A program made the position numbers and the translations under genes. Below, in pieces: positions 14,743 through 26,433 of a stretch of 29,613 bases of DNA. How positions within the stretch are numbered: position 1 is the first letter of the stretch; each line of letters opens with the position of its first letter. This DNA is from a virus. Its lineage: Duplodnaviria > Caudoviricetes. The DNA is taken from the IMG/VR virus record IMGVR_UViG_3300008266_000327, positions 1 to 29,613 of that record; one strand, written 5' to 3'. Below the pieces are notes generated by a model that saw nothing but the letters and a program-made list of their open reading frames with translations, had not been told where the DNA came from and did not search any database.

Positions 14743-14813
14743 TAGCGCTATCAACGTAACAAGCGTTAAAAGCGTTAAAAGCGTTAAAAGCGATAAAAGA
14801 TGCAAAGCGTTAA
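14743..14813 (+). repeat. 9-bp tandem repeat array (AAGCGTTAA), right
   Basis: TAGCGCTAT CAACGTAAC, then AAGCGTTAA three times and AAGCGATAA, plus a further copy at 14805-14813. Confidence 0.85.
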
Positions 14814-15105
14814 TAAAGGTGATTAACCAAAGTGGGGAGGCGTCAGCCTCGACACAAGCAAAGTAGCTTTTTGCACTTTTTCGGCTTAAAAAATGAAAAA
14901 GCGTATTGTTTTATGAGGTGGAAAGCCGTTCACTCATTGGCCCGCACTAGGTTGAACAGATTCAAAAACCGCTAATGGATATTGTTGAACGGGATGTAAT
15001 ACATAATCTATAAGTTTCTATATAGCGCTAGGCTCATGACCTAACTATATTTATTGAAGTGGGTTATCGTTATTGTATTACTCTTTTTAATGCGCGTTCA
15101 ATATG

Positions 15106-15134
15106 TTTACAGTGTTCAGATTCAGTGATAGTCT
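15106..15134 (+). promoter_or_regulatory. Candidate early promoter
   Basis: TTTACA, 17-bp spacer, TAGTCT with an extended -10 TG, upstream of the first rightward gene. Confidence 0.45.
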
Positions 15135-15182
15135 TAACTTTGACTGAACGTATCCACATAAATGTACGCAACAGGAGTTCAC

Positions 15183-15404
15183 ATGAAAGCTAGATATTCT
15201 TTTTGGGTGGGAACATCGCAACAATTCACAACCAACACGCTCAATTTCGTTGGGTCAAGCCCCTTGGTATCCTCTGAGCAACAAGCTATTAAATGGTTTA
15301 AACACCTATCACCTGGTATGCCTAGAGCTTTTTGGGATCAAACATACTATAAACGTGAGGGGGACAAAGCTAGACGTAAGTTATGCAATCACCACTCATA
15401 CTAA
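15183..15404 (+). CDS. Hypothetical early protein (73 aa)
   Basis: AGGAG RBS 5 nt before ATG 15183. Confidence 0.55.
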   Translation: MKARYSFWVGTSQQFTTNTLNFVGSSPLVSSEQQAIKWFKHLSPGMPRAFWDQTYYKREGDKARRKLCNHHSY

Positions 15405-15450
15405 TTGTTAAGCATTGTAAACAGATTAAGCCATCATCATAAATTAGTGT

Positions 15451-15479
15451 TTGACATCGCCTGAATAATCTGATTTACT
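15451..15479 (+). promoter_or_regulatory. Candidate promoter for the ribozyme-containing early operon
   Basis: Perfect TTGACA (15451-15456), 17-bp spacer, TG-n-TTTACT (imperfect -10). Confidence 0.5.
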
Positions 15480-15491
15480 AATTACATCGAA

Positions 15492-15555
15492 AGCGAGAGA
15501 CGAGAGCTACGCTCCCAACCCCTCGCTAATAGCTCTGTACTTTGATAATTAAATA
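15492..15555 (+). promoter_or_regulatory. Leader hairpin plus boxA-like antitermination sequence
   Basis: AGCGAG/CTCGCT stem with an inner GAGC/GCTC hairpin (15492-15527), followed by GTACTTTGATAATTAAATA (15537-15555), resembling rrn boxA-type motifs. Confidence 0.4.
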
Positions 15556-15560
15556 TATGA

Positions 15561-15686
15561 GTCCTACTGATGAGCGTTTAATACGCGAAACAGGCTCAGA
15601 TCCTACCCGATGATGCTCTTGTGTCAGCTAGCCCTTGCCGGGTAATGCTCAATCAAGCCAGCTATCGGGCTGAGCCTGTTTAGGAC
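15561..15686 (+). ncRNA. Type I hammerhead ribozyme HHR1, with extended stem III
   Basis: Stem I GTCCTA/TAGGAC; core CTGATGA; stem II GCGT-ttaat-ACGC; GAAA; stem III CAGGCTCAG...CTGAGCCTG; cleavage triplet GUU, cut at 15680/15681. Confidence 0.85.
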
Positions 15687-15708
15687 ATTAATTAGAAGGA
15701 TTTCAATC

Positions 15709-15879
15709 ATGAACCGCAAACAGTATGAACTTGCAACACTATTGAACGCTTTAGAGACTATCAATAAGGCCGGTCACCAAACTTTAGTTAATGAGTTTTA
15801 TGAAACCGTTAGGCAAGCGGTACACGATAGCACCGCGCCGAACCTAATCCCCCAAGGTTGGGATGTAGTGACCGCATGA
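15709..15879 (+). CDS. Hypothetical early protein (56 aa, MNRKQYELATLLNALETINKAGHQ...), absent from the ORF track
   Basis: AGAAGGA RBS; ATG 28 nt after the HHR1 cut; ATGA overlap with the next gene. Confidence 0.7.
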   Translation: MNRKQYELATLLNALETINKAGHQTLVNEFYETVRQAVHDSTAPNLIPQGWDVVTA

Positions 15880-16091
15880 TACTAACAATCGCAGGCTTTG
15901 CCCTTGGTGCATTGCTCTTGATATCACAAGCAACCATGATCTATATGATCAAAAACGCCCCTGAGTCTAATGTCAGAGTCTATTTATTCCCTGAATTAGA
16001 CCTAGAGCTAGTGGAACACCTCGAAGAACCTGAGGAGCCAAAATATATACGCAGGTTTTGGGCAATCCTAGACCGCATTTTACATCCCTAG
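15876..16091 (+). CDS. Small membrane protein (71 aa)
   Basis: N-terminal hydrophobic helix; ATGA coupling; the G of the stop codon is the first base of HHR2 stem I. Confidence 0.65.
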   Translation: MILTIAGFALGALLLISQATMIYMIKNAPESNVRVYLFPELDLELVEHLEEPEEPKYIRRFWAILDRILHP

Positions 16092-16144
16092 TCCTACTGA
16101 TGAGCGTTTATGACGCGAAACAGGGCGCAAGCCCTGTATAGGAC
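16091..16144 (+). ncRNA. Type I hammerhead ribozyme HHR2 (minimal, canonical)
   Basis: GTCCTA CTGATGA GCGT-ttatg-ACGC GAAA CAGGGC-gcaa-GCCCTG TA TAGGAC. All core nucleotides present, GNRA-capped stem III, GUA triplet, cut at 16138/16139. Confidence 0.93.
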
Positions 16145-16169
16145 AGTTAATTTAGGAGATCATCAGATT

Positions 16170-17105
16170 ATGGCTAAAGTTTTGAAAAACAATGATCAAG
16201 TGGCTCATGCTTGGGCCAATGCTAAACAGCCATGTGGTTATACTTCCAGCCGTTCGTTTAGCTTTGATGGCTCAGCCCTCTTGAGTTATAACACAGTCAT
16301 AGCTCAAAGAGTGTCAACACCAGCGGGCACACAATACATATATAGTGCTAGATCCTATAGTGTCACCACTGAGGGCAAGCATAAAAACGCTATGCACAAG
16401 GCAGCTAGCCACTTGATGGACATCAAAGTAGATGAAGCCCCGAGCAATTGGGATTTACGCTTTTCTAATGCCTTTTTAACTTGGGTAGAGAATCAAAGCG
16501 CTTACCTTGTGGATGAACTTAACAAGTTTCCGGGCAAAATTAAACGCGCTAGATCCTCTAAAGCGTGGCTTGTGGAACAATACGACAGAGAAGCGGCCAA
16601 CGCTAGACGGTTTAAAACCTTTTGTATTGCCCGAATAGATGACATTGAAGGGGAATGGCCCATAAGCGCACAAAAACGCTTCTATGCGGCTATGGACTCA
16701 ATCACTGAAGCCACGCCATCAAGTGACACTATCGACACATTACACCTTGAGGCAGGCGCATATTTGAGCAATCAAAAAGAGCGTCAAATTAAGACTGAAG
16801 CGGAACAAGTGGAAGAATGGAAGCGCGGCAAGCGTAAAAAACTAAACATCTACCACACTACACACCTACGCATCAATAAAAATCATGATGTTGAGACATC
16901 CAAAGGTATGATTATACCTAACAGAGAGGCAAGAATAGCTTTTGAAGCGTTCAAACGTGGTAAATTATTGGGTTTAAAACTGTTAGGCTACACCATAACC
17001 CAAGTAAATACAGAGACAAAGCGTGTTGTCGCTGGATGTCACTCAGTCCCCTTTGAGGATATCGAGCAACTAGGCCCGCAATTAGTCCTACTGATGAGTG
17101 CTTAA
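16170..17105 (+). CDS. Conserved phage hypothetical early protein (311 aa)
   Basis: AGGAG RBS with ATG at 16170 (the 16110 start lies inside HHR2). VAHAWAN, YSVTTEGKH and AGCHSVPF motifs resemble a phage hypothetical family I recall. Confidence 0.8.
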   Translation: MAKVLKNNDQVAHAWANAKQPCGYTSSRSFSFDGSALLSYNTVIAQRVSTPAGTQYIYSARSYSVTTEGKHKNAMHKAASHLMDIKVDEAPSNWDLRFSNAFLTWVENQSAYLVDELNKFPGKIKRARSSKAWLVEQYDREAANARRFKTFCIARIDDIEGEWPISAQKRFYAAMDSITEATPSSDTIDTLHLEAGAYLSNQKERQIKTEAEQVEEWKRGKRKKLNIYHTTHLRINKNHDVETSKGMIIPNREARIAFEAFKRGKLLGLKLLGYTITQVNTETKRVVAGCHSVPFEDIEQLGPQLVLLMSA

Positions 17106-17145
17106 ATAGCTGAAACAGGGAGCAAACTAGCTCCCTGTATAGGAC
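17085..17145 (+). ncRNA. Type I hammerhead ribozyme HHR3, overlapping the 3' end of the upstream CDS
   Basis: GTCCTA CTGATGA G-t-GCT-taaat-AGC-T GAAA CAGGGAGC-aaacta-GCTCCCTG TA TAGGAC. GUA triplet, cut at 17139/17140; stem II is weaker (G-U closing pair and a bulge). Confidence 0.85.
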
Positions 17146-17168
17146 AGTTAAAATAAGGAATACCAACC

Positions 17169-17444
17169 ATGCAAATTAAACCTTGGGATGGAAAGTTACA
17201 CAAAAAGATTGATTTCTATCAGTGGAGCAAGCAAAAAGGTTACTATGAGTACGTTTGTAGCACCAACCAAAGTAGAACGCTCAAAGAGGCGGCGCAAAAG
17301 TTCTATAGTTCGCGATATGCGAACGGAGAGCCCGCCAGCTTGACCGAGAACACGTTTAAAATCACGTTCAGCAATTCGCCCAAGTGGTTTAATTTACTCC
17401 CCTTGGTGGAGCGTACAGGGCGCAATGAGGAGATGAGCGCGTGA
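17169..17444 (+). CDS. Hypothetical early protein (91 aa)
   Basis: TAAGGA RBS; ATG 29 nt after the HHR3 cut. Confidence 0.75.
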   Translation: MQIKPWDGKLHKKIDFYQWSKQKGYYEYVCSTNQSRTLKEAAQKFYSSRYANGEPASLTENTFKITFSNSPKWFNLLPLVERTGRNEEMSA

Positions 17445-17611
17445 GAACGTATATCTTCCGGTTTTTAAATATAGCTATACGCATAAAAGCACCTACAGAG
17501 AGCGAGGCGTCTAGTTTATTAGCTTGTGCATTGGCACAAGCCAGAGAGCAGGGAGCTAAAACAGAATATCAGTGTTGGAAACATGCAAGGGATAAAGGGT
17601 TAAAGCTATGA
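17441..17611 (+). CDS. Hypothetical protein (56 aa), absent from the ORF track
   Basis: GAGGAG RBS, GTG start, and GTGA/ATGA overlaps with both neighbours. Confidence 0.6.
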   Translation: MRTYIFRFLNIAIRIKAPTESEASSLLACALAQAREQGAKTEYQCWKHARDKGLKL

Positions 17612-18300
17612 ACGAAGTTTATATACTGGCTCGAAATACATACAATGATCCTAGTCTAGGGCTTTTGGCTTGTTACTTTGATAGACAGCAAGCGGAAAAT
17701 GACTGTAACGTCTTATCTACTTACGCTGGCACCGAAGACACCTACCGGATTATCTTACTTAAAGTAGCTCCAGGGCAAGCTTTCCCGGTTTATCTTGGGG
17801 TGGATTTTTCAGAAAAAACGATACCAGTAGTAAATCCGGGGGCTGAGAGGGTGGCCGCAATGTCCTCTTTCTGTCAGGATATCGTCCAGGAGCCCCCTAG
17901 CATCGACGAGAACAAGCGTTTATCGACGGACAGGCTCAAAGTACCTGGAAGTGGTTTACGTCCTCCTATCGGAACACGTAACCGAAAATCAGGAGGAACC
18001 AGAGAGGGTGTTAAGTTTAAGCGATATCCTGAATCAATTAAAATCGATCTGGAAAATTTTCTTTTCAGAGAAATCGAGAAACGGAATTTGGTGTATATCG
18101 TTGAAATACAACAACTATTGGCGGAACAAGTACACCCTAGAACCGTGTTCAAATGGGTTACAGACTTTTTCAAAAGCCAAGAAAACCTAACATACACGTA
18201 TGGACGTGCAGTACACCCGAAATTTAAAGTACCCGTCAGCGTTTATGTCCCTGATGAAAAAGTAAACAGCTTTACACTCCACGCTAATTCCTCAAGTTGA
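17608..18300 (+). CDS. Hypothetical protein (230 aa), possible C-terminal winged-helix DNA-binding domain
   Basis: Long ORF coupled to the upstream gene; VHPRTVFKWV resembles an HTH recognition helix. Confidence 0.65.
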   Translation: MNEVYILARNTYNDPSLGLLACYFDRQQAENDCNVLSTYAGTEDTYRIILLKVAPGQAFPVYLGVDFSEKTIPVVNPGAERVAAMSSFCQDIVQEPPSIDENKRLSTDRLKVPGSGLRPPIGTRNRKSGGTREGVKFKRYPESIKIDLENFLFREIEKRNLVYIVEIQQLLAEQVHPRTVFKWVTDFFKSQENLTYTYGRAVHPKFKVPVSVYVPDEKVNSFTLHANSSS

Positions 18301-18442
18301 CTGTCCTACGGAGGAACCAGACCCTTTTGAAGGGTTGTAGGTTTACCGAGTCACCTTGTTCGGGCCACGTATGTAGTTGAATAGGCTCATACGTGGCCTC
18401 ATACAGGGTTGTTAGTATGATAAATAATAGGGAGATACCATA

Positions 18443-18946
18443 ATGAACGCCGATAATAAAAAGACACTGTACGAAATGCTAACAGGTATAAAGCTTCTGG
18501 AGGAAATAGAAGCGATAGTTGAAGCGCACAAAAAGAAAACCGAGGATCTTTTTACTTGCGCCTTCACAAATGAGACGGATAACCCTTACGACGAAGCTTT
18601 CCAAGCCCGTAAAAATAGTTTTGATGTCTTAAAAACCGGTGAAAACGAAATCCGGCTCAGCACTCCATACTTTCAGTGGGATGAAGAGAAGGGGATGCCC
18701 TACACTTACTTCTGTGATAACCACTTTGAGTACCTGATGAAGCTTTACTTAAATAATTTCATAATGGGTAACACCGATCAAGGCGGCGTTCAAGTCTATT
18801 TAAACCTGTTAAGCGATGATAATCCGCTGTTGGATAGCGGTTGGGAGGAAATAACAGACAAACGCATATCATTTTTCGAGGAAGTTGTTACCAAGCTTAA
18901 AGCGACGAGGGCAGAACAGGATAAAGACGAGGCGCAGAACCAATGA
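18443..18946 (+). CDS. Hypothetical protein (167 aa)
   Basis: AGGGAG RBS; long acidic ORF. Confidence 0.75.
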   Translation: MNADNKKTLYEMLTGIKLLEEIEAIVEAHKKKTEDLFTCAFTNETDNPYDEAFQARKNSFDVLKTGENEIRLSTPYFQWDEEKGMPYTYFCDNHFEYLMKLYLNNFIMGNTDQGGVQVYLNLLSDDNPLLDSGWEEITDKRISFFEEVVTKLKATRAEQDKDEAQNQ

Positions 18947-25493: not shown

Positions 25494-25727
25494 ATGATCC
25501 CCGTAGCGGCGGTCTGTAAACTAATATCTGTCCTGTTGGCAGCAGGGTTCGCCCTAACATTCCTCGTACTGTTTGTATGGCTAGCCGGGGCGATAGCCAT
25601 GACCCTCGTATCATCTATTAAATCGTTTGTGAAAGGACGGAAATCCATTGAAAACAAAAGCAATCGCAGTAGCTTTGATAGCACTGACAGTGACACTGAC
25701 TGGGTGCGCTACGATAGAACCCGGTGA
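25494..25727 (+). CDS. Small membrane protein (77 aa)
   Basis: AGGAG RBS; long hydrophobic segment; overlaps the next gene by 80 nt. Confidence 0.5.
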   Translation: MIPVAAVCKLISVLLAAGFALTFLVLFVWLAGAIAMTLVSSIKSFVKGRKSIENKSNRSSFDSTDSDTDWVRYDRTR

Positions 25728-26433
25728 GCGCGGCGTCAAGGTTGACATGGGCGTAGTGGACAAGCACTTAATCACTAATGGCGTCACGATGTACAACCCC
25801 CTGACATCCAGTATATATGAGTATAACGTGAAGCAGGACACTGTGACTGGAGAAGCTAACCCCTTAACCAGTGACCAGCAGCCCATTTCTATCTCTTACC
25901 GAGTTCAATATAAGATCCCTGAAGGCCAAGTACTGAATTTGTTTGAGAACGTAAAGGGTGATCCTTACGAGACGCTAGTGGTTCCTCAAATCCAGGAGGC
26001 ATTCCGCCAAGTAGTCAGTAAGTATAAGGCTGACTACGTTACCGCTAACGTCAATACGGTGAAAGATCAGGTAGTCGCCCAGGTGCGTAACGCACTCAAC
26101 GGCCAAATGACTGTCATCGATATCCCCATTACCCACGTAGACCTTCCGAAACCGCTGCAAATTGCCATCATCGAGAAGCAACAGATGGAAATGCAAGCAA
26201 AGAAGAAAGCCTACGAGCTTGACCGTGAGCGGAAGCAAGCTGAAATCACAGTAACAAAAGCCAAGGCTGAAGCTGAAAGCACCAAGTTAATGACCGAGGC
26301 TTTGCGTCAGTCGCCTGAGTTGGTGAAGTTCAAGATGGCCGAAGTCGAGCTGGAGAAAGCGAAGAAGTGGAACGGCCAGCTTCCCAGCACTGTGATGGGC
26401 GGCAACGCAAACACCATCTTCTCTCTGAAGTAG
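25648..26433 (+). CDS. SPFH/band 7/prohibitin-family lipoprotein
   Basis: Signal peptide with LTGC lipobox; IEPGERGVKV, AIIEKQ...KAKAEAE and KWNGQLP motifs. Confidence 0.9.
   Translation: MKTKAIAVALIALTVTLTGCATIEPGERGVKVDMGVVDKHLITNGVTMYNPLTSSIYEYNVKQDTVTGEANPLTSDQQPISISYRVQYKIPEGQVLNLFENVKGDPYETLVVPQIQEAFRQVVSKYKADYVTANVNTVKDQVVAQVRNALNGQMTVIDIPITHVDLPKPLQIAIIEKQQMEMQAKKKAYELDRERKQAEITVTKAKAEAESTKLMTEALRQSPELVKFKMAEVELEKAKKWNGQLPSTVMGGNANTIFSLK

What the first reader, a model, noticed from the sequence alone, without database searches (positions are those of the whole stretch)
15561..17168. Three hammerhead ribozymes punctuate the phage early operon, each cutting just upstream of an RBS
Seen in sequence: three same-strand copies of GTCCTA-CTGATGA-stem II-GAAA-stem III-GTH-TAGGAC, with all hammerhead core nucleotides. 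Stem III differs between copies but always pairs (CAGGCTCAG/CTGAGCCTG, CAGGGC/GCCCTG, CAGGGAGC/GCTCCCTG). The predicted cuts (15680/1, 16138/9, 17139/40) lie 28, 31 and 29 nt before start codons that have RBSs, giving near-identical leaders UAGGACA(G)UUAA...AGGA...AUG. Established: hammerheads self-cleave after NUH, leaving 5'-OH and 2',3'-cyclic phosphate; 5'-OH ends avoid 5'-monophosphate-stimulated RNase E decay; T7 splits its early mRNA with host RNase III. Inference: this phage uses protein-free self-cleavage to split its early polycistron into stable, insulated mRNAs, like a natural RiboJ. Hammerheads have been seen in phage DNA, but I do not know of a described operon-processing array like this.
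Basis: partly seen in the sequence, partly recalled or inferred. Interest (0 to 1): 0.95.

Follow-up and report, generated by a model that had tools for sequence, protein, structure and literature searches.

The report
Hammerhead ribozyme trio between phage genes
Three hammerhead RNA motifs, predicted to cut themselves, sit about 30 bases ahead of gene starts in this phage and likely split one long message into pieces; such arrays were described in 2011, but published RNA data for the cultured phage LUZ24 show a transcript end exactly at the predicted cut of the same kind of element, which makes the idea easy to test.

Summary
Observation confirmed: three same-strand type I hammerheads, predicted cuts after 15680, 16138 and 17139, 28/31/29 nt before ATGs with Shine-Dalgarno motifs; none in 300 shuffles. 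The novelty claim fails: Perreault 2011 described triple arrays flanking prophage genes, proposed mRNA processing and showed cleavage; this scan also met the layout many times on other DNA. The stop-hammerhead-RBS cassette is common (96 of 113 with a downstream SD+start; 90 of 108 abutting an upstream stop) and patchy among relatives (5 of 14). Added here: LUZ24 has the same cassette (28-nt leader), and a published ONT-cappable-seq table lists an unexplained 3' end at nt 2480, exactly the predicted cut; hairpin trimming is an alternative. Stabilisation is untested and host-dependent. Cleavage in this phage is untested. New member of a known kind.

The parts
15183..15404 (+). 73-aa ORF with SD, upstream of hammerhead 1; no family hit
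15451..15479 (+). Possible sigma70-type promoter (perfect -35, weak -10); read by eye, not reported by the scan, whose hits were at chance level
   Evidence: sequence
15561..15686 (+). Hammerhead 1 (type I): stem I 15561-66/15681-86, core 15567-73, stem II 15574-86, GAA 15587-89, stem III 15590-15679, H17=U15680; predicted cut 15680/15681
15600..15669 (+). 70-nt structured insert closing stem III of copy 1 (domain folds at -39.3 kcal/mol, z -4.0); a long insert is also present in a diverged strain
15578..15691 (+). Candidate pseudoknot of copy 1: loop II 15578-82 with tail 15687-91 (5 Watson-Crick pairs); only 2-3 pairs possible in copies 2 and 3
15697..15700 (+). SD motif (AGGA) of the 56-aa ORF; predicted paired in the uncut precursor (unpaired 0.01-0.04) and freer after cutting (0.59)
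15709..15879 (+). 56-aa ORF, start 28 nt after cut 1; no family hit
15876..16091 (+). 71-aa ORF overlapping the previous stop; its TAG stop overlaps the first base of hammerhead 2
16091..16144 (+). Hammerhead 2 (type I), the canonical copy: core 16097-16103, stem II 16104-16116, stem III 16120-16137, H17=A16138; predicted cut 16138/16139
16154..16158 (+). SD motif (AGGAG) of the 311-aa ORF
16170..17105 (+). 311-aa ORF (phrog_7247; large uncharacterised phage family, no PDB fold match); start 31 nt after cut 2; its last codons are stem I, core and stem II of hammerhead 3
17085..17145 (+). Hammerhead 3 (type I, variant): core 17091-97, stem II 17098-17111 with G10.1·U11.1 and a bulged U, stem III 17115-17138, H17=A17139; predicted cut 17139/17140
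17156..17159 (+). SD motif (AGGA) of the 91-aa ORF
17169..17444 (+). 91-aa ORF, start 29 nt after cut 3; first of the run of small genes leading to the replication module

Best explanation
Three type I hammerhead motifs sit at gene junctions of this podovirus-like phage and likely cut its presumed early transcript during transcription, without protein, at 15680/1, 16138/9 and 17139/40. Shown: the motifs, their helices and their positions 28-31 nt before SD-led start codons; copies 2 and 3 begin on, or inside, the end of the upstream gene. Inferred from hammerhead chemistry: each cut would leave the upstream piece ending in the stem III hairpin and a 2',3'-cyclic phosphate, and a downstream piece with a 5'-OH and a short, weakly structured, near-identical leader. 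The likely result is three blocks (56+71 aa; 311 aa; 91 aa and onward) whose translation start no longer depends on upstream RNA and whose decay is uncoupled. Copy 2 is predicted to cut well; copies 1 and 3 likely cut partly. Whether the products are more stable depends on the unknown host and is untested.
For: Motifs beyond chance. Family-level structure is real: of 95 distinct matches to a pattern that asked for no stem II or inner stem III pairing, 87 have >=3 further stem III pairs and 77 have >=4 stem II pairs (shuffles 8% and 3%); 122 double-sided changes in 42 aligned motifs, slid controls at most 30 (these motifs were chosen for pairing). Placement is a rule: 96 of 113 motifs have SD+start 10-60 nt after the cut (median 32; 1144 of 5750 random positions); 90 of 108 have an upstream frame of >=45 codons stopping at -12..+1 of C3 (332 of 5550 random). 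Terminase relatives L127, L128, L129 (three copies), L136 and L156/157 carry type I motifs with different stem I sequences at gene junctions of the same small-gene region. A diverged strain keeps the 3' arm of copy 1 with H17 U->A. Tandem prophage arrays cleave in vitro and in E. coli (PMC3088659). LUZ24 has stop-hammerhead-SD-start with a 28-nt leader, and ONT-cappable-seq lists a non-intrinsic 3' end at 2480, the cut I noted before opening the table; no TSS lies between 657 and 4869. Cleaved leaders fold weakly (-0.9 to -4.3 kcal/mol).
Against: No cleavage or RNA data for this phage. Stem I probability falls below 0.15 for copies 1 and 3 once 30-60 nt of flank are included, and copy 3 stays at 0.2 or less at every transcript length tried. 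Copy 3 has the only G10.1·U11.1 among 120 motifs. Only 5 of 14 other >=90%-complete terminase relatives have a validated motif, and the two closest complete ones (G003, G004) have no type I pattern, so the element is dispensable. No promoter above chance was found, so a single transcript is inferred. The LUZ24 end could come from exonuclease trimming to the base of stem III: several other LUZ24 ends lie at hairpin bases, the library needs poly(A) tailing, which a cyclic phosphate would block unless removed (chemistry recalled), and T004 is in no transcription unit row. 4 of 18 consensus hammerheads tested in 2011 were inactive.
Confidence: 0.62

Rival explanations
1. Regulated switch: cutting is gated by ribosomes ending on the upstream gene and by pairing of the 5' arm with the downstream SD, so cleavage turns the next gene on or couples it to upstream translation.
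For: Stop codons overlap copy 2 and lie inside copy 3; 90 of 108 motifs abut an upstream stop. In copy 1 the 5' arm is predicted to pair with the SD (unpaired 0.01-0.04 before, 0.59 after cutting); copy 2 0.27 -> 0.51 in longer context. The C-terminal residues encoded by copy 3 are kept in 89% and 84% identical homologues.
Against: Copy 3 shows no SD change (0.55-0.62 -> 0.65). Stop adjacency is what compact genomes give any intergenic element. Relatives with other stem I sequences (L127-L136, L156) lack SD-complementary arms. Copy 1 has no gene directly upstream. Folding models ignore pseudoknots and ribosomes.
Confidence: 0.17
2. The cut sets unequal lifetimes or marks RNA for decay (glmS-like) to tune gene dosage or shut early genes down, rather than stabilising them.
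For: After glmS cleavage the 5'-OH product is degraded by RNase J1 (PMC3328962 passage). The 2019 review lists different stabilities or translation efficiencies as open options (PMC6765202 section 13). The cassette also occurs in records of Anaeroplasma and Anaerovoracaceae genomes, lineages recalled to use RNase J.
Against: The nearest named DNA-polymerase relatives infect Proteobacteria (38-42% identity only), where 5'-OH slows end-dependent decay. The fixed ~30-nt distance to an SD fits a translated product.
Confidence: 0.09
3. Neutral or DNA-level role: the repeats are boundaries of a gene-shuffling cassette, spread by duplication; some copies (notably copy 3) are decaying and cleavage has little effect.
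For: Copy number among relatives is 0-3 and flanked genes differ. Copy 3 is a variant predicted to misfold. The three copies share a 35-nt repeat.
Against: Catalytic core and helices are kept with compensatory change across very different phages, which DNA recombination does not need; the LUZ24 element region is held by 90 phage records.
Confidence: 0.07
4. Cut-and-rejoin: because all three copies share stem I, the 458-nt and 1001-nt excised pieces can rebuild a hammerhead from their own ends and ligate into circular mRNAs, or skip a block.
For: Both excised pieces can form full stem I from their own ends. Type I motifs leave most of the catalytic fold on the cyclic-phosphate end (PMC3088659 discussion), and full-length type I hammerheads ligate far faster than minimal ones (PMC6155905 passage).
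Against: Only 11 of 22 adjacent pairs in multi-copy loci can cross-pair 5 bp, and one partner's stem I was mostly fixed by my search pattern. Perreault et al. looked for spliced or circular products and found none. Several relatives have a single copy.
Confidence: 0.05

Closest known systems
Clustered hammerheads flanking genes in prophages (Perreault et al. 2011, PMC3088659; sections 6, 8, part of 11 and Dataset S1 searches read)
   Same: Several hammerheads close together, flanking single genes or short blocks of small hypothetical genes in phage DNA; same proposed role (long transcript cut to operon- or gene-length mRNAs); triple arrays; loop-tail pseudoknot option.
   Different: Here a podovirus-like genome without integrase or RNA polymerase hits, all three copies type I with identical stem I; one has a 70-nt stem III insert and one is overlapped by a coding region. 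The sections read do not quantify the fixed stop-adjacent start or the ~30-nt leader.
Type I hammerhead of Pseudomonas phages LUZ24 and PaP3 (Dataset S1 of PMC3088659; NC_010325.1 2407-2488)
   Same: Type I; begins at the upstream stop codon; cut 28 nt before the next start, SD in between; loop II/tail pseudoknot possible; early region of a podovirus; scores 45 bits with the model built here.
   Different: Single copy; unrelated phage; has an in vivo 3' end at the predicted cut, which this phage lacks.
HHphage of haloviruses HF1/HF2 (PMC3088659 discussion)
   Same: Hammerhead just upstream of an early-gene start; a transcript 5' end mapped within 3 nt of the cut.
   Different: Variant core, single copy at the first gene, archaeal host.
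[quoted passage not shown]
   Same: Type I motif cutting just ahead of an ORF; cleavage tied to translation initiation and subgenomic RNA.
   Different: Eukaryotic RNA viruses, cap-independent initiation; no SD.
T7 early mRNA processing by RNase III; RiboJ insulator (both recalled, not checked by a call)
   Same: Works like them: splits a polycistron or standardises the 5' leader.
   Different: T7 uses a host protein and leaves 5'-phosphate ends; RiboJ is synthetic and adds a hairpin after the cut, whereas these leaders are nearly unstructured.
Retrozymes (PMC6155905 figure legend passage)
   Same: Tandem hammerheads bounding a 0.5-1 kb segment.
   Different: Retrozymes are non-coding, LTR-bounded plant elements with type III motifs; here the segments are protein-coding and share only a 35-nt repeat.

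Membership tests
Hammerhead ribozyme, type I | Core C3-U4-G5-A6-N7-G8-A9, G12-A13-A14, A15.1-U16.1, H17 | tested here: met
   All three copies
Hammerhead ribozyme, type I | Three helices around the core, helix I open-ended | tested here: met
   Stems 6/4/10, 6/5/7, 6/(1+3 around a bulge)/9; covariation in 42 motifs
Hammerhead ribozyme, type I | G10.1-C11.1 pair, copies 1 and 2 | tested here: met
Hammerhead ribozyme, type I | G10.1-C11.1 pair, copy 3 | tested here: not met
   G·U wobble, 1 of 120 motifs; filed as a variant; even a U-U mismatch there occurs naturally (PMC3088659 section 8)
Hammerhead ribozyme, type I | Tertiary contact between stem I and loop II | tested here: inconclusive
   5-bp loop II/tail pseudoknot possible in copy 1, 2-3 bp in copies 2-3; family-wide 29 of 120 with >=4 bp against 16+-3 in permutations
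Hammerhead ribozyme, type I | Site-specific self-cleavage after H17 | not testable with these tools
   No RNA data for this phage; indirect support from LUZ24
Rfam hammerhead models | Score at the family's gathering threshold | tested here: not met
   Best RF00008 21 bits vs 48.5; the published LUZ24 motif and other clear motifs are missed too, so this reflects model coverage
Clustered phage hammerheads (Perreault 2011) | Two or more hammerheads close together on the coding strand | tested here: met
   Three within 1.6 kb
Clustered phage hammerheads (Perreault 2011) | Flank single genes or short gene blocks in phage DNA | tested here: met
   Blocks of 2 genes and 1 gene; terminase, portal, head, tail genes in the window
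Clustered phage hammerheads (Perreault 2011) | All sites cleave in a multi-gene transcript | not testable with these tools
   Needs in vitro transcription of 15500-17250
Retrozyme | Long terminal repeats each holding a hammerhead around a non-coding segment | tested here: not met
   Only a 35-nt repeat; segments are ORF-filled

The most novel reading that the evidence does not exclude
The three copies share an identical stem I, so the excised 458-nt and 1001-nt gene blocks could refold a hammerhead from their own two ends and ligate: a DNA phage making circular, exonuclease-proof early mRNAs (or skipping a gene block) with no protein, with ribosomes that terminate inside copy 3 deciding which product forms.
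Probability: 0.06. Interest if true: 0.85.

Novelty: new member of a known kind. Interest (0 to 1): 0.38.

Why it matters
The purpose of self-cleaving ribozymes near phage genes is still called open in the 2017 and 2019 reviews. This locus is one more clean example, not a new system, and its phage is uncultured. The useful by-product is a tractable model: the same stop-hammerhead-RBS cassette lies in the early region of cultured LUZ24/PaP3-type phages (region found in 90 records), and a published in vivo 3' end falls on the predicted cut, listed there as a terminator of no predicted type. I found no paper linking the two (open-access library only). One base change in LUZ24 could decide between processing, regulation, decay and neutrality. 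Rfam misses this type I subgroup, so phage annotation overlooks it.

Tried and rejected
Rfam on the window and on the 1.75-kb region: no hammerhead at threshold; Rfam at gathering on 8 relative loci without a motif found no other ribozyme class and missed all motifs in 10 loci, 9 of which hold one. BLASTN of 15000-18500 and TBLASTN of the 311-aa protein against GenBank phages: no match; copy 2 as a query gave only chance hits. The 14-mer scan of viral contigs gave 120 loci, of which only L051/L052 (identical record) and L073 held hammerheads. No RNA holder listed. Seven of eight laid DNA runs were 99%+ identical with partial cover and showed no variants; the table for the one diverged run was cut, so its stem III 5' arm was not seen. 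Promoter and terminator scans were at chance level. Host not determined. The 311-aa protein gave a confident model (pLDDT 96) but no PDB match and only uncharacterised viral matches; Atlas clusters unnamed. A decayed second hammerhead arm inside the copy 1 insert is weak (154 of 5000 shuffles score as well). Pairing of loop II with the 5' flank is not enriched (11 of 120 vs 8+-2.6). Type II and III descriptors on the 81 loci L121-L201 found nothing convincing. Rejected: RNase III-type or terminator reading of the repeats (core and three-way junction are conserved, no U-tract), retrozyme membership, and the 331-aa start at 16110 (inside hammerhead 2; homologues start at 16170). Dataset S1 text was cut when stored and its alignments could not be searched by motif; the .doc descriptor file and bioRxiv supplements were not readable, and subscription papers (for example Jimenez 2011, de la Pena 2010, Weinberg 2015) were not seen.
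Full report
Observation. The three elements are in the sequence as described. A descriptor scan of both strands found three type I hammerheads (helix I open) with C3 at 15567, 16097 and 17091, identical 6-bp stem I, stem III of 10, 7 and 9 pairs, and predicted cuts after 15680, 16138 and 17139; none appeared in 300 dinucleotide shuffles. The next ATGs lie 28, 31 and 29 nt after the cuts, each behind an AGGA or AGGAG motif. A covariance model from 42 type I motifs scores copy 1, which was not in its training set, at 39.8 bits. Rfam misses all three, and also misses the published LUZ24 motif.

The copies are not equal. Copy 2 is canonical and folds as a hammerhead in every context tried (stem I probability 0.7-1.0). 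Copy 1 has H17=U, a 70-nt structured insert in stem III and a possible 5-bp pseudoknot between loop II and the 3' tail; in longer context its 5' arm is predicted to pair with the SD instead. Copy 3 has G10.1·U11.1, the only such case among 120 motifs, a bulged U, and is predicted to misfold; the 311-aa ORF reads through its stem I, core and stem II and stops inside it, and the residues so encoded are kept in homologues of 89% and 84% identity but absent from 30% ones. The 71-aa ORF's stop overlaps the first base of copy 2. The pieces would carry two genes, one gene and the rest of the block.

Context. The window is a podovirus-like phage: terminase, head-tail adaptor, head and tail proteins on the minus strand; small genes, then primase-helicase, SNF2 helicase, exonuclease and ssDNA-binding protein on the plus strand. 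Record G001 (43,338 bp, 100% complete) is identical over the 6-6.5 kb loci compared, holds only these three sites and adds tail fibres, a resolvase and DNA polymerase; no integrase or RNA polymerase family was hit among the 38+11 proteins scanned. 'Early operon' is inferred from position; no promoter stood above chance. The host is unknown; the nearest named polymerase relatives (38-42%) infect Proteobacteria. The 311-aa protein belongs to a large uncharacterised phage family (1946 hits) with no PDB match.

Relatives. Of 80 terminase-related loci I searched the whole records behind 34. Among the 14 other records at least 90% complete, 5 (G005, G006, G007 with three copies, G010, G020) have a validated type I motif; the closest complete ones (G003, G004) have no match, and G008's match is not a hammerhead. 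These motifs have different stem I sequences and sit at gene junctions of the same small-gene region. One of eight laid DNA runs is a diverged strain: it keeps the 3' arm of copy 1 with H17 changed from U to A and one stem III change whose partner was not shown, and has a motif with a perfect 4-bp stem II.

The cassette is widespread. In a set of 120 distinct motifs (120 metagenome loci, six viral loci and the window, chosen for pairing), 96 of the 113 with enough downstream sequence have an SD plus start 10-60 nt after the cut (median 32; random positions 1144 of 5750), and 90 of the 108 with enough upstream sequence have a frame of 45 or more codons ending at -12 to +1 of C3 (random 332 of 5550; 28 of the 108 end on the core's own UGA). 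A loop II/tail pseudoknot of 4 or more pairs is possible in 29 of 120 (permutations 16+-3). The set is biased to one stem I sequence and its members are not independent.

What is known. Perreault et al. 2011 (PMC3088659; passages, sections 6 and 8, part 1 of section 11, and searches in Dataset S1 read) state that multiple hammerheads often flank single genes or short gene blocks in prophages, that this implies processing into operon- or gene-length mRNAs, that three tandem arrays cleaved in vitro and one in E. coli, and that no spliced or circular products were detected. Reviews of 2017 (PMC6155905, passages) and 2019 (PMC6765202, passages and section 13) call the role open. Earlier notes of this scan report the same layout in many other genomes; I treat them as leads, not support, and my counts predate the stop-codon notes.

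A link to in vivo data. Dataset S1 lists a type I hammerhead at LUZ24 2407-2488. There gp5 stops at 2409, the motif follows at once, the predicted cut is after C2480 and gp6 starts at 2509: the same cassette with a 28-nt leader. I noted that cut before opening the supplement of the ONT-cappable-seq study PMC10914365 (passages, section 18 and supplement table rows read), which lists LUZ24 T004 at 2480 (+), with no predicted terminator type, and no start site between 657 and 4869. With 26 such ends on 45.6 kb an exact hit by position alone is unlikely (about 3 in 10,000), but ends favour hairpin bases and stem III ends one base earlier, the library uses poly(A) tailing, and T004 is in no transcription-unit row. 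It is suggestive, not proof, and concerns another phage. The paper's main text never mentions ribozymes, and a search for LUZ24 with ribozyme returned one unrelated paper. The region is held by 90 phage records.

Mechanism. Most likely (0.62) the motifs cut the nascent transcript at gene junctions, giving blocks with a short, weakly structured 5'-OH leader and an upstream piece capped by the stem III hairpin, which uncouples translation and decay of the blocks. The motifs and positions are shown; cleavage, a single precursor and the consequences are inferred. Stabilisation depends on the host: 5'-OH slows RNase E end-dependent decay (bioRxiv 2020.07.22.216051, one passage) but feeds RNase J1 (PMC3328962, passage). 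Rivals: ribosome- or SD-gated cutting (0.17), decay or dosage control (0.09), neutral or DNA-level cassette boundaries (0.07), re-ligation into circles (0.05; both excised pieces can rebuild stem I, but only 11 of 22 adjacent pairs can across loci). A 2026 paper on type I hammerheads in eukaryotic RNA viruses (PMC13725137, abstract and passages) shows that cleavage ahead of an ORF can drive translation, by a route that does not involve an SD.

Verdict. Real, correctly located, and a new member of a kind described in 2011. Interest 0.38 rather than 0.95: the system is known and this phage is uncultured, but the LUZ24 coincidence makes the open question of function directly testable. T7 RNase III processing, RiboJ and hammerhead numbering are recalled, not checked by a call.

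Noticed in passing
L330:2407-2511 (LUZ24 early region): Published ONT-cappable-seq 'terminator' T004 at 2480 coincides to the base with the predicted cut of the catalogued type I hammerhead; the study does not mention ribozymes.
   Followed up: partly
window 15600-15669: 70-nt structured insert in stem III of copy 1; its 6-nt bulge (15600-05) is complementary to the downstream SD region, and it holds a weak look-alike of the hammerhead 5' arm (3% of shuffles score as well). A diverged strain keeps a long insert with a changed 3' part.
   Followed up: partly
window 17085-17105: The last seven codons of the 311-aa gene are the 5' half of hammerhead 3; close homologues keep these residues, distant ones lack them.
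   Followed up: partly
window 16170-17105: Large uncharacterised phage protein family (1946 relatives) with invariant H13, S39, T67, R234, C290, H291 and a confident model without a PDB match; possibly an enzyme or metal-binding protein.
   Followed up: partly
window 15486-15560: Structured leader between a possible promoter (15451-79) and hammerhead 1; cut 1 would remove it, so copy 1 may mature a 5' end rather than split genes.
   Followed up: no
window 14765-14815: Short tandem-like repeats (about five copies of a 9-base unit) and a GC-rich hairpin at 14624-43 in the gene-poor stretch between the divergent structural and early modules; possible origin or genome-end region.
   Followed up: no
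window 18342-18424: Long hairpin between the 230-aa and 167-aa ORFs (chance-level Rfam hit); could be an RNase III-type processing site.
   Followed up: no
window 25648-26433: SPFH/Band 7 family gene inside the replication module.
   Followed up: no
L206, L212, L217, L218, L221, L238 and similar metagenome loci: Many type I motifs are followed by a second hairpin between the cut and the SD, a closer natural analogue of an insulator with a 5' hairpin than the window's copies.
   Followed up: no
L328:2991-3057; L325; L327: The same cassette occurs in named bacterial genome records (Glaciimonas immobilis DSM 23240, an Anaeroplasma MAG, an Anaerovoracaceae MAG); the first is a cultured strain.
   Followed up: partly
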